DNA of 64,000 bases from the human T2T-CHM13v2.0 reference genome, Homo sapiens (GCA_009914755.4 CP086569.2:50848001-50912000), one strand, 5' to 3'; positions 4,737-40,732 are shown, counted from the stretch's first letter. Notes: a model not told the origin generated them from the sequence alone. Numbers and translations: made by a program.

Positions 4737-6858
4737 ATATTTTTTAAATGAAAAAAAATTTCAAAGGTACTCTGCTTGGTACAATAATCAAATGTATAAA
4801 CTGAGGAATAAAACATAACCATGAAACCTACTTATAACTGCATATGGAAAATACAGAGGATAATTTTTTAAATAACATATTTTGAAAGCCTTAACTAGTA
4901 ATTTGAAGAGTTGGCATTTGAAAGGCCAGTATGAATATACCTTCAAAGCAGCAACACAGGTTCCCCATGAGAAAAAGCAAAGACAGGGAAAATAAAACCA
5001 CAAACGTTCAATCTCTTCTGACCTTTGAAAGACACAGCACAGACAGTGGTCCTTAGGACGAAGAGCAGGAGACCCCTAATTCCGTCACCATGGCGATAGG
5101 GCATAAACATTGCTGGGTGAGGGCACAATCCACATTGTGAGGTCCAACTGCTGCCAGGAAGACAGGAGTGCTTTTACATAGACCGAAAGGTCATTGAAGG
5201 CTCAGAGTTTTGTTTCAAGAACTGAATCCCAAGCCCACACGTTATTAGGCTGCGCTTCCTAAAACAAGTTATGAGATGGGAAAAAGGGCACCCACAAACA
5301 TACGTATACATTATGTATATAATAATATACAGTATCATATATATAATATATATAACCTATGTATAATATTGTTTTACATCCTGCATCTTATATTATATAT
5401 ATTGTATAAAATATAATAATTGATAACATATAAGTTTTATATTTATACAAAATGACATATAGTATATATTATAATTTATGACATATATAATATGTGTTAT
5501 ATAACATATATAGAATATATTATACGGTTAATATACGTATTAAATATAAATTATACATTATATATATTATATATAATATATCTGTTATATATAATACCCA
5601 TTATGAATAATATATATATTATGTGTATGTTATATATAGTATAAAACAACACATAATAATATATAATTGTATATATAAAATGCGACATATAATATATATT
5701 ATATTTTATGACATATGTAGTATATATTATATATTATATATAATACCTTGTATGTATAATACCTATATTAAATATATATTATATGACTATGTAATTAATT
5801 ACATGTCACATATGATATATATTATATATTTTACATAGAATATACCGGTTACATACAATATATACTATGTTACCTATAATGTATAATTTATTACATGTAA
5901 AATAAAGAATGCAATATATTATGTAAAATTTATAATATAAAATATGTGGAATGTGATATATATAACACATAATATATGATATATGATATACAGAATATGA
6001 TATATAACATACAATATATGATACCTAATATATATGGTATACATTATATATTTTATGATATGTATTCTATATGTTTTATATTCTGTTATATATAACTATT
6101 TGAAATTATATATAACTGTATAATATTTTATGTAAATATGTAATATAATATATATAACTATATAATATATTATATATAACTATATATTATGTTATATATA
6201 CTTTTATAACATAATTTACATAAAATATCATAATATAATATATATTATATTATTTCATATTACATAATATATATTACATATCACCCAATATAAGTAACAT
6301 ACATAATATTAAATTATATATTATATTACGTTATATTAAATATCATATATATCATGTATCATATAGTATATAATATATATTCTACATTATATAATATGTA
6401 TGTTGTCTATTACGTGATATCTATAACTGTATATATAATTACATTATTATACATATAACTAGATAAACATGTAATTCTACATATTTTCATTTATAATATA
6501 TAGAATTATATAATCATATATAATTATTTATATTCTATAAAAAATTATATCATTATATAAATTATAATATATAAAAATTATAACATGTACTACAAATATA
6601 TATATTATATATCATATATGATATAGTACCTTTGTTATATATCATAATACATATAAATGTGTATTATGTTATCTATAATTATATAATTTCATATATAAGA
6701 TGTATAATATGTATTATATATTATATATGTTATGTAATATATATAGTATATATAAGATGACACAGGATAAATATTATATACTATGACATATAAAATATAT
6801 GAGGTTATATGTTACATATAAGGCATAGCACATAACATGTAATATATATCATATATAA

Positions 6859-7156
6859 TTTTTTTTTAGACAGATTCTTGTCGTGTTGCACAGGGTGGAG
6901 TACAATGGCGCCATCTTTGCTCACTGCAACATCTGCCTCACGGGTCCAAGCGATTGTCCTCCCTCAGCCTCCCAGGTAGCTGGGACTACACCACACTGGG
7001 ACTACACCAGCTGCCACCATGCCTAGCTAATTTTTTGAGATTTTATTAGTGACAGCGTTTCACTGTATTGGCCAGGATGGTCTTGATCTCTTCACCTTGT
7101 GATCCCCTTGCCTTGGCCTCCAAATTTGCTGGGATTACAGGCCTGAGCCAAGATCC
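6859..7156 (-). mobile_element. Alu, unit 3 copy (hybrid type I / type II markers)
   Basis: The same Alu is present. It carries 'ccatgcctagc' (flank-type marker) followed by 'tttttgagattttattag' (central-type marker). Confidence 0.9.
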
Positions 7157-9278
7157 ATATTTTTTAAAAGAAAAAAAATTTCAAAGGTACTCTGCTTGGT
7201 ACAATAATCAAATGTATAAACTGAGGAATAAAACATAACCATGAAACCTACTTATAACTGTATACGGAAAATACAGAGGATAATTTTTTAAATAACATAT
7301 TTTGAAAGCCTTAACTAGTAATTTGAAGAGTTGGCATTTGAAAGGCCAGTATGAATATACCTTCAAAGCAGCAACACAGGTTCCCCATGAGAAAAAGCAA
7401 ATTCAGGGAAAATAAAACCACAAAGGTTCAATCTCTTCTGACCTTTGAAAGACACAGCACAGACAGTGGTCCTTAGGACGAAGAGCAGGAGACCCCTAAT
7501 TCCGTCACCATGGCGATAGGGCATAAACATTGCTGGGTGAGGGCACAATCCACATTGTGAGGTCCAACTGCTGCCAGGAAGACAGGAGTGCTTTTACATA
7601 GACCGAAAGGTCATTGAAGGCTCAGAGTTTTGTTTCAAGAACTGAATCCCAAGCCCACACGTTATTAGGCTGCGCTTCTTAAAACAAGTTATGAGATGGG
7701 AAAAAGGGCACCCACAAACATATGTATACATTATGTATATAATAATATACAGTATCATATATAAAATATGTATAACCTATGTATAATATTGTTATACATC
7801 CTGCATCTTATATTATATATATTGTATAAAATATAATAATTGATAATATATAAGTTTTATATTTATACAATATGACATATAGTATATATTATAATTTATG
7901 ACATATATAATATATGTTATATATCATATATAGAATATATTATACGGTTAATATACGTATTAAATATAAATTATACTTTATATATATTATATATAATATA
8001 TCTGTTATATAAAATACCCATTATGCATAATATATATGTTATGTCTATGTTATATATAGTATAAAACAACATATAATAATATATAATTGTATATATAAAA
8101 TGCGACATATAATATATATTATATTTTGTGACATATGTAATATATATTATATATTATATATAATACGTTGTATGTATAATACCTATATTAAATATATATT
8201 ATATGACTATGTTATTAATTACATGTCACATATGTTATATATTATATATTTTACATAGAATATACCGGTTACATACAATATATACTATGTTACCTATAAT
8301 GTATAATTGATTACATGTAAAATAAAGAATGCAATATATTATGTATAATTTATAATATACAATATGTGGAATGTGATATATATAACATATAATGTATGAT
8401 ATAAGATATACAGTATATGATATATAATATACAATATATGATACCTAATATATATGGTATACAATTTATATTTTATGATATGTATTCTATATGTTTTATA
8501 TTCTGTTATATATAACTATTTGAAATTATATATAACTGTATAATATTTTATGTAAATATGTAATATAATATTTATAACCATATAATATATTATATATAAC
8601 TATATATTATGTTATATATACTTTTATAACATAATTTACATAAAATATCATAATATAATATATATTATATTATTTCATATTACATAATATATATTACATA
8701 TCACCCAATATAATTAACATACATAATATTATAATATAGATTATATTATGTTATATTAAATATCATATATATCATGTATCATATATTCTATAATATATAT
8801 TATACATTATATAATATGTATGTTGTCTATTATGTGATTTATATAACTATATATATAATTATATTATTATACATATAACTAGATAAACATGTAATTCGAC
8901 ATATTTTCATTTATAATATATAGAATTATATAATCATATATAATTATTTATATTCTATAAAAAATTATATCATTATAAAAATTATAATATATAAAAATTA
9001 TAACATGTACTACAAATATATATATTATATATCATATATGATATAGCACCTTTGTTATATATCATAATACATACAAATGTGTATTATGTTATCTATAATT
9101 GTAAAATTTCATATATAAGATGTATAATGTGTATTATATATTATATATGTTATGTAATATATGTAGTATATATAAGATGACACAGGATAAATATTATATA
9201 CTATGACATATAAAATATATGAGGTTATATGTTACGTATAAGGCATAGCACATAACACGTAATATATATCATATATAA

Positions 9279-38324: not shown

Positions 38325-38613
38325 AGACAGAGTCTTGTCCTGTTGCACAGGGTGGAGTACAATGGCGCCATCTTTGCTCACTGCAACATCTGCCTCACGG
38401 TTCCAAGCGATTGTGCTCCCTCAGCTTCCCAGGTAGCTGGGACTACACCACACTGGGACTACCCGAGCTGCCACCATGCCTAGCTAATTTTTTGGAATTT
38501 TAGTAGTGACAGCGTTTCACTGTATTGGCAAGGATGGTCTTGATCTCTTCACCTTGTGATCCCCTTGCCTTGGCCTCCAAATTTGCTGGGATTACAGGCC
38601 TGAGCCAAGATCC
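38325..38613 (-). mobile_element. Alu, unit 16 copy (flank-type markers reappear)
   Basis: Same Alu. It carries 'ccatgcctagctaattttttggaattttagtag', 'cacggttccaagcgattgtgctccctcagcttccc' and 'ctacccgagctgcc'. Confidence 0.9.
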
Positions 38614-40732
38614 ATATTTTTTAAATGAAAAAAAATTTCAAAGGTACTCTGCTTGGTACAATAATCAAATGTATATACTGAGGAATAAAACATAACCATG
38701 AAACCTACTTATAACTGCATATGGAAAATACAGAGGATAATTTTTTAAATAACATATTTTGAAAGCCTTAACTAGTAATTTGAAGAGTTGGCATTTGAAA
38801 GGCCAGTATGAATATACCTCCAAAGCAGCAACACAGGTTCCCCATGAGAAAAAACAGACTCAGGGAAAATAAAACCAAATAGGTTCAATCTCTTCTGACC
38901 TTTGAAAGACACAGCACAGACAGTGGTCCTTAGGACGAAGAGCAGGAGACCCCTAATTCCGTCACCATGGCGATAGGGCATAAACATTGCTGGGTGAGGG
39001 CACAATCCACATTGTGAGGTCCAAGTTCTGCCAGGAAGACAAGAGTGCTTTTACATAGACCGAAAGGTCATTGAAGGCTCAGAGTTTTGTTTCAAGAACT
39101 GAATCCCAAGCCCACACGTTATTAGGCAGTGCTTCTTAAAACAAGTTATGAGATGGGAAAAAGGGCACCCACAAACATACGTATACATTATGTATATAAT
39201 AATATACAGTATCATATATATAATATATATAACCTATGTATAATATTGTTTTACATCCTGCATCTTATACTATATATATTGTATAAAATATAATAATTGA
39301 TAATATATAAATTTTACATTTATACAATATGACATATAGTATATATTATAATTTATGACATATATATTATATGTTATATATCATATATAGAATATATTAT
39401 ACGGTTAATATACGAATTATATATAAATTATATATTATATACATTATATATAATATATCTGTTATATATAATACCCATTATGCATAATATATATATTATG
39501 TCTATGTTATATATAGTATAAAACAACATATAATAATATATAATTGTATATATAAAATGTGACATATAATATATATTATATTTTATGACATATGTCATAT
39601 ATATTATATATTATATATAATACGTTGTATGTATAATACCTATATTAAATATATATGATATGACTATGTTATTAATTACATGTGACATGTGTTACATATT
39701 ATATATTTTACATAGAATATACCGGTTACATACAATATATACTATGTTACCTACAATGTATAATTCATTACATGTAAAATAAAGAATGGAATATATTATG
39801 TATAATTTATAATATACAATATGTGGAATGTGATATATATAACATATAATATATGATATATGATATACAGTATATGATATATAACATACAATATATGATA
39901 CCTAATATATATGGTATACATTATATATTTTATGATATGCATTCTATATGTTTTATATTCTGTTATATATAACTATTTGAAATTATATATAACTGTATAA
40001 TATTTTATGTAAATATGTAATATAATATATATAGCTATATAATATATTATATATAACTATATATTATGTTATATATACTTTTATAACATAATTTACATAA
40101 AATATCATAATATAATATATATTATATTATTTCATAATACATAATATATATTATATATCACCCAATATAAGTAACATACATAATATTATAATATAGATTA
40201 TATTATGTTATATTAAATATCATATATATCATGTATGATATATAATAATATATATTATACATTATATAATATGTATGTTGTCTATTATGTGATATATATA
40301 ACTATATATATAATTATATTATTATACATATAACTAGATAAACGTGTAATTCTACATATTTTCATTTATAATATACAGAATTATATAATCATATATAATT
40401 ATTTATATTCTATAAAAAATTATATCATTATATATTATAATATATAAAAATTATAATATGTACTACTAATATATATATTATATATCATATATGATATAGT
40501 ACCTTTGTTATATATCATAATACATATAAATGTGTATTATGTTATCTATAATTATATAATTTCATATATAAGATGTATAATATGTATTATATATTATATA
40601 TGTTATGTAATATATATAGTATATATAAGATGACACAGGATAAATATTATATACTATGACATATAAAATATATGAGGTTATATGTTACATATAAGGCATA
40701 GCACATAACATGTAATATATATCATATATAAT

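What the first reader, a model, noticed from the sequence alone, without database searches (positions are those of the whole stretch)
4834..38710. Nested array architecture with a homogeneous central block flanked by older mosaic units, and hybrid units marking the exchange points
Units 1–2 and 16–19 carry 'ataactgcatatgg', 'ttttaaatgaaaaaaaa', 'ccatgcctagc' and 'ttttgga(t/a)ttttagtag'. Units 4–15 carry 'gtatacgg', 'ttttaaaagaaaaaaaa', 'ccatacctagc' and 'gggattttattag'. Unit 3 switches type inside its Alu between about 7,018 and 7,031. Unit 16 starts as central type at 36,293 and is flank type by about 38,290. Not every marker co-segregates; for example 'aaactcaggg' extends into the right flank. 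The units are therefore conversion mosaics and not clean subfamilies. The pattern suggests that a variant unit expanded within a pre-existing array.
Basis: seen in the sequence. Interest (0 to 1): 0.55.

Follow-up and report, generated by a model that had tools for sequence, protein, structure and literature searches.

The report
Local unit expansion in Y-chromosome DYZ2 satellite

Summary
Window 1-49,653 holds 20 full units and one truncated unit of a 2,420-bp AT-rich, Alu-containing repeat. It abuts a GGAAT satellite with a 3,544-bp higher-order period. This matches the published human Yq12 DYZ2/HSat1B-DYZ1/HSat3 organisation.

Units 4-15 are 98.9-100% identical and form a clade with 100% bootstrap support. 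They share 25 derived substitutions. The other units differ from them, and from each other, by about 59 substitutions.

Unit 3 switches to the central haplotype at 7,022-7,038, inside its Alu. Both switches are significant by permutation.

Forty-eight independent copies of the repeat, found as human contamination in public assemblies, carry the "flank" allele at essentially every diagnostic site. In the copies at least 96% identical, 3 of 485 calls show the central allele. So "flank type" is just the general DYZ2 state, and "central type" is the private haplotype of one amplified unit.

The most likely mechanism is unequal sister-chromatid exchange, with some gene conversion. Published work already describes homogeneous array interiors with divergent edges, and de novo gains or losses of one or two DYZ2 units. 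This is an ordinary instance of a known process, and interest is low.

The parts
1..49653 (.). DYZ2/HSat1B-type tandem array: 20 full units of 2,386-2,420 bp plus one truncated unit. The array runs off the left end of the window.
   Evidence: GC is 24.5% with 1 CpG per 129 bp. Each unit has three parts: a GC-richer segment at unit positions ~2318-2420 plus 1-470, an AT-rich segment at 470-2025, and an Alu at 2026-2317. 'ACATACG' sits at the junction of the GC-richer and AT-rich parts, as described in 10.1101/2022.12.01.518658.
1..4833 (.). Units 1-2. These are the old units closest to the general DYZ2 consensus, at 0.9% and 1.1% divergence. Unit 2 has a 7-bp deletion and is 2,413 bp long.
4834..7253 (.). 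Unit 3, the left hybrid. It is an old lineage with 30 private substitutions up to column 2219. Its last ~215 bp carry the central haplotype.
6859..7150 (-). Alu-derived segment of unit 3, on the minus strand. It contains the left exchange interval.
   Evidence: Weak Rfam hits to mir-1268 and DLEU2_6 fall at the equivalent position of unit 5. From my own knowledge, both families overlap Alu sequence.
7022..7038 (.). Left exchange interval, where the flank state switches to the central state.
   Evidence: Column 2202 (window 7021) is flank-state and column 2220 (window 7039) is central-state. Fisher p = 4e-4; permutation p = 0.0018.
7039..37443 (.). Central amplified block of ~30.4 kb (about 12.6 units), carrying 25 block-specific derived substitutions.
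7814..35455 (.). Young core of the block. The older central-type edge pieces lie outside it, at 7039-7813 and 35456-37443.
   Evidence: The private changes of unit 4 all lie in columns 149-562. Those of unit 15 all lie in columns 1592-2230. Units 5-14 have at most 2 private changes each.
9674..16933 (.). Units 5, 6 and 7 are identical to each other. These are the most recent single-unit duplications.
   Evidence: 100.0% identity and 0 private substitutions
24194..33873 (.). Units 11-14 form an ABAB pattern (U12 vs U14 100.0% as rounded, one substitution at column 2319; U11 vs U13 99.8%). This is the signature of a two-unit (4.84-kb) tandem duplication.
   Evidence: (U12+U14 bootstrap 100%)
36293..38710 (.). 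Unit 16, the right hybrid. Its left ~1,150 bp are early-branching central type. The remainder is a separate old lineage carrying 20 of the unit's 24 private substitutions.
37444..37615 (.). Right exchange interval, where the central state switches back to the flank state. It lies in the AT-rich part of the unit.
   Evidence: Column 1155 (window 37443) is central-state and column 1330 (window 37616) is flank-state. Fisher p = 1e-3; permutation p = 0.003.
38711..45902 (.). Units 17-19, old flank units. Units 18 and 19 share a 32-bp deletion.
45903..49653 (.). Units 20 and 21, the strongly diverged edge units (~9.7% from consensus). Unit 21 is truncated in its AT-rich part at the satellite junction.
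49654..64000 (+). GGAAT-type satellite with a 3,544-bp higher-order period (DYZ1/HSat3-like).
   Evidence: Offset peak at 3,544 bp. Copies are 99.0, 97.4, 88.8 and 87.7% identical. GC is 38.5% with 1 CpG per 36 bp.

Best explanation
**What it is.** This is the distal edge of a human Yq12 DYZ2 (HSat1B) array, next to a DYZ1 (HSat3) array.

**How the block arose.** The array edge consisted of old units that had diverged from one another by about 2.4%. One of those units had already accumulated about 25 private substitutions. It was then copied repeatedly in tandem by out-of-register exchange between sister chromatids, or by equivalent replication-associated slippage. Each step added one or two units.

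**Result.** The product is a block of about 12.6 units at 7,039-37,443.
- Exchanges between the block ends and the neighbouring old units left two hybrid units. U3 has its junction at 7,022-7,038 and U16 at 37,444-37,615.
- Later exchanges were concentrated inside the block. Its core is therefore youngest (U5=U6=U7; the U11-12/U13-14 duplication), and its two end pieces are older.
- Occasional short gene conversion adds the few markers that do not co-segregate.

**Shown versus inferred.** Shown here: the clade, the polarity of the alleles, the two breakpoints and the layered ages. Inferred: the molecular mechanism and the dating.
For: **Identity of the repeat.**
- The unit is 2,420 bp and comprises an AT-rich part, a 5'-truncated Alu and a GC-richer part, with 'ACATACG' at the junction.
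- The array is 24.5% GC. The adjacent 3,544-bp GGAAT repeat is 38.5% GC.
- These values match the descriptions read.

**Expansion of one unit.**
- The U4-15 clade has 100% bootstrap support.
- 25 block-specific alleles are absent from units 1, 2 and 17-19. Most are also absent from outgroup units 20/21.
- Among 31 independent external contigs at least 96% identical, 3 of 485 calls show a central allele. All 50 pattern matches in 48 contigs are flank type.
- Central-to-flank distance is 59.2 substitutions and flank-to-flank distance is 58.6. The progenitor was therefore just one more old lineage.

**Duplication rather than overwriting.**
- Three contiguous units are identical, and units 11-14 show an ABAB two-unit pattern.
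- All block units are exactly 2,420 bp, whereas flank units vary from 2,386 to 2,420 bp.
- No islands of old private variants remain inside the 30-kb block.

**Hybrid units.** Permutation p values are 0.0018 (U3) and 0.003 (U16). U16 private substitutions fall 4 to the left and 20 to the right of the junction (p = 7e-4).

**Process observed directly by others.**
- About one de novo structural variant of 2,416-4,839 bp, each affecting whole DYZ2 unit(s), was seen per Y transmission. 29% of Yq12 de novo mutations look like interlocus gene conversion (PMC12240836).
- Sister-chromatid exchange in Yq12 was seen in about 15% of Strand-seq libraries (10.1101/2022.12.01.518724).
Against: - The species and chromosome are inferred from published descriptions and from matching contaminant contigs. 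They were not confirmed by alignment to a reference Y, and HSat1B also occurs on acrocentric short arms.
- Crossover and long-tract gene conversion cannot be told apart from a single haplotype.
- The block is about 12.6 units long rather than a whole number. More than one kind of event at its ends is therefore needed.
- Inside the block, 31 of 136 site pairs fail the four-gamete test. The history is not a simple series of duplications.
- U16 carries the flank state at column 761, and U3 carries a lone central allele at column 1762. A single breakpoint does not explain either.
- Perfectly identical units could in principle be an assembly or polishing artefact. This cannot be tested here.
Confidence: 0.8

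Rival explanations
1. Homogenisation by gene conversion without any change in copy number. Twelve pre-existing old units were progressively overwritten by one donor haplotype, and the hybrids U3 and U16 mark the ends of conversion tracts.
For: - Interlocus gene conversion is reported in Yq12. It accounts for 29% of de novo mutations in PMC12240836 and 17% of events in PMC13252187.
- The block ends fall at arbitrary positions within units.
- There are four-gamete failures inside the block.
- Unit 20 shares the two central alleles at columns 8 and 12, which looks like a short conversion tract.
Against: - Overwriting 30 kb would require many overlapping tracts. Yet no residual old private variants remain, although each flank unit carries 14-34 of them.
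- All block units have exactly the same length.
- Three contiguous units are identical, and the ABAB two-unit pattern is a duplication signature.
- Whole-unit gains and losses are observed directly, at about one per transmission.
- The median conversion tract reported for Y palindromes is 542 bp, much shorter than one unit.
Confidence: 0.1
2. Two true DYZ2 subfamilies, a flank type and a central type, met here by rearrangement. For example, a segment from another array was inserted or transposed into this one, and the hybrids are the insertion junctions.
For: - There are sharp boundaries, with 25 linked differences.
- Multi-block duplications of up to 5 Mb are reported in Yq12.
Against: - No external copy carries the central haplotype. 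0 of 50 pattern matches are central type, and 3 of 485 allele calls show a central allele.
- The flank units are not a clade and carry the general consensus states.
- The junctions are in-register homologous hybrids, not insertion breakpoints.
- The older central-type pieces at both block edges indicate growth in place.
- The external sample is biased towards the most abundant sequence, so a rare donor array cannot be excluded.
Confidence: 0.06
3. Assembly artefact. Near-identical units were over-replicated or over-polished by the assembler, which would exaggerate the homogeneity or copy number of the block.
For: Units 5-7 are identical, and units 12 and 14 differ at one site only. Yq12 is stated to be the hardest region of the Y to assemble.
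Against: - Most block units remain distinguishable by 1-16 substitutions, arranged in a structured and spatially ordered pattern.
- The hybrid junctions and the older edges are coherent biological signals.
- Published pedigree data show such arrays are real.
Confidence: 0.04

Closest known systems
Human Yq12 DYZ2 (HSat1B) arrays as described by Hallast et al. 2023 (10.1101/2022.12.01.518658) and Rhie et al. 2023 (10.1101/2022.12.01.518724)
   Same: - The unit is 2,420 bp and has the same AT-rich, truncated-Alu and GC-richer (HSATI) composition.
- GC is about 24% and the array lies next to 3.5-kb DYZ1.
- Units are more similar in the interior and more divergent towards the array edge.
- Evolution by unequal exchange is proposed there too.
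   Different: - Here the homogeneous block is a small, 12-unit local expansion. It lies within the divergent periphery, 12-42 kb from the array edge, not in the middle of a large array.
- Exact breakpoints and a layered history are resolved at base level.
- No reference Y was available to place the window.
De novo whole-unit DYZ2 structural variants in a four-generation pedigree (Porubsky et al. 2025, PMC12240836)
   Same: The pedigree shows gains or losses of 2,416-4,839 bp, meaning one or two DYZ2 units. The step sizes inferred here are the same: single-unit copies (U5-U7) and a two-unit duplication (U11-U14).
   Different: Those are single events observed across one generation. Here the accumulated outcome of many such events is read from one haplotype.
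Layered expansion of centromeric alpha-satellite higher-order repeat arrays, and the classical unequal-crossover model of tandem-repeat homogenisation
   Same: Both show a young homogeneous core flanked by progressively older, more diverged copies. Hybrid repeats mark the exchange points, and smaller duplications are nested inside larger ones.
   Different: The satellite family, unit size and chromosomal context are different, and there is no kinetochore association. The Y long arm has no homologue, so exchange must be between sister chromatids or within one chromatid.

Membership tests
DYZ2 / HSat1B satellite (human Yq12) | Tandem unit of about 2.4 kb (2,420-bp consensus) | tested here: met
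   Thirteen units are exactly 2,420 bp; the others are 2,386-2,419 bp. The consensus length is given in 10.1101/2022.12.01.518658.
DYZ2 / HSat1B satellite (human Yq12) | Composite unit: an AT-rich simple-repeat region fused to a 5'-truncated, diverged Alu, followed by an HSATI segment, with 'ACATACG' at the HSATI/AT-rich junction | tested here: met
   - The Alu spans 277 nt on the minus strand at unit positions 2026-2317.
- The AT-rich part (8-18% GC) spans positions 470-2025.
- The GC-richer part spans 2318-2420 plus 1-470.
- 'ACATACG' is at about position 465.
- The HSATI label itself was not tested, because no Dfam library was available.
DYZ2 / HSat1B satellite (human Yq12) | Base composition of about 24% GC and about 1 CpG per 150 bp | tested here: met
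   24.5% GC and 1 CpG per 129 bp, against the values quoted.
DYZ2 / HSat1B satellite (human Yq12) | High identity to other human HSat1B copies | tested here: met
   - 48 contaminant contigs in bacterial genome and metagenome assemblies contain the repeat.
- 31 of these contigs are at least 96% identical.
- Units 1-19 are 0.9-2.2% from their consensus.
- That such contigs are human HSat1B contamination follows from Rhie et al.. It was not verified independently.
DYZ2 / HSat1B satellite (human Yq12) | Y-chromosomal rather than acrocentric location: alternation with DYZ1, a ~3.5-kb HSat3 pentamer-derived repeat | tested here: inconclusive
   The adjacent GGAAT satellite has a 3,544-bp period, 38.5% GC and 1 CpG per 36 bp. 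This matches DYZ1 as described. No Y reference or DYZ1 consensus was available for direct alignment.
Tandem array homogenised by unequal exchange (local expansion) | The amplified copies form a single clade defined by derived alleles and are physically contiguous | tested here: met
   100% bootstrap support. Polarity was set by units 20/21 and by the external copies. Runs test.
Tandem array homogenised by unequal exchange (local expansion) | In-register hybrid units at the block boundaries | tested here: met
   U3 and U16, with permutation p = 0.0018 and 0.003.
Tandem array homogenised by unequal exchange (local expansion) | Copy-number gain, as opposed to conversion at constant copy number | not testable with these tools
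   This needs orthologous arrays from other Y chromosomes or pedigree data. The indirect evidence (identical runs, the ABAB pattern, uniform unit length) favours gain.

The most novel reading that the evidence does not exclude
Peripheral DYZ2 units are not inert relics. New homogeneous sub-arrays can bud from a single diverged edge unit only 12-42 kb from the DYZ1 boundary. Growth would be layered, with the youngest copies in the centre, and the exchange points may prefer particular sequence features, since the left one lies in the A/T-rich linker of the Alu. If the high pedigree mutation rate applies, the block is roughly 100-250 thousand years old. It would then be polymorphic among Y lineages and usable as a dated marker of Yq12 remodelling.
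Probability: 0.2. Interest if true: 0.35.

Novelty: already known. Interest (0 to 1): 0.15.

Why it matters
The window gives a clean, base-resolved example of how a satellite array renews itself. One old unit is amplified, hybrids mark the ends of the new block, and the youngest copies sit in the middle. However, the phenomenon has been published for this satellite. The elementary events, gains and losses of one or two units, have been seen directly in pedigrees. The case therefore adds no new biology. At most it is a candidate lineage-specific marker, and a caution that array peripheries also expand.

Tried and rejected
- **Rfam scan of one unit.** It gave only two sub-threshold hits, mir-1268 and DLEU2_6, both over the Alu. 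There is no structured RNA here.
- **First marker search.** My rendering of one flank marker was one T short and gave 0 hits. The correct string, TTTTGGATTTTTAGTAG, is present in units 1, 2 and 17-20.
- **First permutation script.** It timed out and was replaced by a faster statistic.
- **Apparent central alleles in L019, L031 and L032.** These turned out to be non-homologous bacterial parts of chimeric contigs that had been forced into the alignment, so they were discarded.
- **"Flank type" as a subfamily.** I rejected this because the flank units are not a clade and carry the consensus states.
- **Recombination hotspot in the Alu.** I did not pursue this. Only one of the two mapped junctions lies in the Alu, and the other inferred exchange points cannot be bounded.

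
Full report
**What the window is**

- Positions 1-49,653 hold a tandem repeat with unit starts at 1, 2421, 4834, then every 2,420 bp from 7254 to 33874, then 36293, 38711, 41127, 43517, 45903 and 48290.
- Each unit has three parts:
  - an extremely AT-rich stretch at unit positions about 470-2025 (8-18% GC);
  - a GC-richer segment at positions 2318-2420 plus 1-470, with 'ACATACG' where it meets the AT-rich part.
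- From 49,654 to 64,000 the sequence is a GGAAT-type satellite with a 3,544-bp higher-order period. Its copies are 99.0, 97.4, 88.8 and 87.7% identical.
- Composition is 24.5% GC with 1 CpG per 129 bp in the first repeat, and 38.5% GC with 1 CpG per 36 bp in the second.
- These features match the published description of human Yq12. There, DYZ2/HSat1B has a 2,420-bp consensus made of an AT-rich repeat, a 5'-truncated Alu and HSATI, with 24% GC and 1 CpG per 150 bp. It alternates with DYZ1/HSat3, which is about 3.5 kb with 38% GC and 1 CpG per 35 bp (10.1101/2022.12.01.518658; 10.1101/2022.12.01.518724).
- I could not align the window to a reference Y. The chromosomal assignment therefore rests on these matches.

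**Checking the observation**

- In a MAFFT alignment of the 21 units (2,434 columns, almost gap-free), units 4-15 are 98.9-100% identical to each other. Units 1-3 and 16-19 are 97-98% identical to everything. Units 20-21 are about 90% identical to everything.
- The U4-15 clade has 100% neighbour-joining bootstrap support.
- Across 46 informative sites there are 163 allele runs along the array. With unit order permuted there are 349 +/- 41, with a minimum of 200. The distribution is not random.
- Twenty-five columns carry an allele found in at least 11 of the 12 central units and in none of units 1, 2 and 17-19.

**The hybrid units**

- Unit 3 has the non-central state at 20 of the 21 diagnostic columns up to column 2202 (window 7021). 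It has the central state at all four columns from 2220 (window 7039) onward.
  - Fisher p = 4e-4; p = 0.0018 when permuted over all possible breakpoints.
  - All 30 of its private substitutions lie before column 2220.
- The switch interval, 7,022-7,038, lies inside the Alu (6,859-7,150).
- Unit 16 has the central state at 6 of 8 columns up to column 1155 (window 37443). It has the non-central state at 16 of 17 columns from 1330 (window 37616) onward.
  - Fisher p = 1e-3; permutation p = 0.003.
  - Its private substitutions split 4 on the left and 20 on the right (p = 7e-4).

**Which type is derived?**

- This was the main open question, so I looked for independent copies of the repeat.
- A pattern allowing either allele found 15 contigs in bacterial genome assemblies. 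A longer pattern allowing both haplotypes found 33 metagenome contigs. According to Rhie et al., HSat1B is a frequent human contaminant of such records.
- All 50 pattern matches are the flank haplotype.
- In the 31 contigs that are at least 96% identical to the window units, the central allele appears in 3 of 485 calls across the 25 sites.
- A few apparent central alleles in L019, L031 and L032 were non-homologous bacterial sequence in chimeric contigs.
- The diverged edge units 20/21 also carry the non-central state at most of the sites.
- The mean distance from central to flank units (59.2 substitutions) equals the mean distance among flank units (58.6).
- So there is no "flank type". The flank markers are the ordinary DYZ2 state, and the flank units are a star of old lineages with 14-34 private substitutions each. 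The "central type" is the private haplotype of one such old unit that was amplified.

**Layering**

- Divergence from the external consensus runs as follows: 0.9% (U1), 1.1% (U2), about 2.0-2.2% (U3-U17), 1.4% (U18-19) and 9.7% (U20-21).
- At about ten sites U1 shares the external-consensus state while U2-U20 share the alternative. This suggests the array becomes more majority-like to the left of the window and more archaic towards the DYZ1 boundary.
- Within the block, the private changes of U4 all lie in columns 149-562. Those of U15 all lie in columns 1592-2230. U15 also lacks four block alleles.
- The block therefore has older central-type end pieces at 7,039-7,813 and 35,456-37,443, around a younger core.
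- In the core, U5=U6=U7 are identical. U11-U12/U13-U14 form an ABAB pattern indicating a two-unit duplication.

**Mechanism**

- Amplification by out-of-register sister-chromatid exchange, or by replication slippage of whole units, is the most economical explanation. Four observations favour it:
  - the block units all have the same length, while flank units vary;
  - no islands of old private variants remain in 30 kb;
  - contiguous identical units are present;
  - the ABAB pattern is a duplication signature.
- The elementary events have been observed directly. About one de novo structural variant of 2,416-4,839 bp, affecting whole DYZ2 unit(s), occurs per Y transmission (PMC12240836). Sister-chromatid exchanges in Yq12 were seen in about 15% of Strand-seq libraries.
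- Gene conversion is also documented there, at 29% of de novo mutations and 17% of events. It probably accounts for the discordant markers:
  - 31 of 136 site pairs inside the block fail the four-gamete test;
  - U16 carries the flank state at column 761;
  - U3 carries a lone central allele at column 1762;
  - unit 20, although about 10% diverged, shares the two central alleles at columns 8 and 12 (GTATACGG at 45,909), and these two alleles are seen in 0 of 25 external copies.
- Crossover and long-tract conversion cannot be separated from one haplotype. Conversion at constant copy number is kept as a rival at about 0.1.

**Rough dating (inference only)**

- With the pedigree estimate of 3.86e-7 substitutions per bp per generation for Yq12:
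  - the mean of 8.9 differences among U4-U14 corresponds to roughly 4,800 generations;
  - zero differences among U5-U7 gives an upper bound of about 1,600 generations;
  - the 59 differences between central and flank units correspond to about 32,000 generations.
- With a euchromatic Y rate these ages would be more than tenfold older.
- Part of the "mutation" rate is conversion, so these are order-of-magnitude figures only.

**Comparison with what is known, and verdict**

- Hallast et al. state that DYZ2 units near the middle of an array are more similar to each other than to units at the distal regions. They attribute this to expansion and contraction in the middle, with divergent units accumulating at the periphery.
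- Rhie et al. report patterns consistent with unequal exchange.
- This finding is a small-scale, base-resolved instance of that behaviour. The only nuance is that the expansion seeded within the divergent periphery, 12-42 kb from the array edge.
- Novelty is "already known". Interest is low (0.15).

Noticed in passing
window 45903-45920 (start of unit 20), compared with 7254-36310: Unit 20 is about 10% diverged from all other units. Even so, it shares the two central-block alleles at alignment columns 8 and 12 (ATAACTGTATACGG). These alleles are absent from units 1-3, 17-19 and 21 and from 25 of 25 external copies. It looks like a very short conversion tract or a retained old polymorphism, and it remains unexplained.
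   Followed up: partly
window 1-2420 (unit 1): At about ten sites unit 1 carries the external-consensus allele, while units 2-19 and outgroup unit 20 share the alternative. Unit 1 is also the closest to the consensus, at 0.9%. This suggests the array grades into a majority-type interior just to the left of the window.
   Followed up: partly
window 43110-43120 and 45500-45510 (approximate; alignment columns 1988-2019 in units 18 and 19): Units 18 and 19 share an identical 32-bp deletion just upstream of the Alu. Units 17 and 20 lack it. This points to an older two-unit relationship in the right flank.
   Followed up: no
window 3300-3310 (unit 2, alignment columns 892-898): Unit 2 lacks 7 bp (TATATAT) in its AT-rich region, making it 2,413 bp long. 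This is not the 'ACATACG' annotation gap that makes 2,413 bp the most common DYZ2 length reported by Hallast et al.
   Followed up: no
window 7816-8241 and the same offset in every unit: Inside each unit's AT-rich region there is an internal direct repeat with a period of about 230 bp, 1.8 copies and 76% identity. This indicates an older sub-repeat structure within the unit.
   Followed up: no
window 46458-47790 (unit 20): The AT-rich part of the diverged edge unit has decayed into low-complexity TA / TATATTA-like sequence, which Tandem Repeats Finder reports with periods 2 and 7. Unit 21 is cut off in its AT-rich part at the junction with the GGAAT satellite, at about 49,654.
   Followed up: no
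window 49654-64000: The DYZ1-like 3,544-bp repeat shows the same edge effect. The partial copy next to the junction is 87.7% identical to the next unit, whereas the two following units are 99.0% identical to each other. A further copy at 59,090-62,567 is only 88.8% identical and has 139 gap positions.
   Followed up: partly
L001-L048 (for example L001 Mycobacterium sp. LZSC01000004.1, L003 Bifidobacterium tibiigranuli NZ_QLZA01000025.1, L004 Actinomadura cremea BMRF01000089.1): 48 short contigs in public bacterial genome and metagenome assemblies are 96-99% identical to this human satellite. They appear to be human contamination, as already reported by Rhie et al. Some are chimeric with bacterial sequence (L019, L031, L032).
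   Followed up: partly
L023, L034, L037, L047: Several metagenome contigs carry copies of the repeat that are only about 90% identical to units 1-19 and about 91% identical to unit 20. They may represent a diverged HSat1B subfamily, perhaps acrocentric or from old array edges. Their origin was not determined.
   Followed up: no
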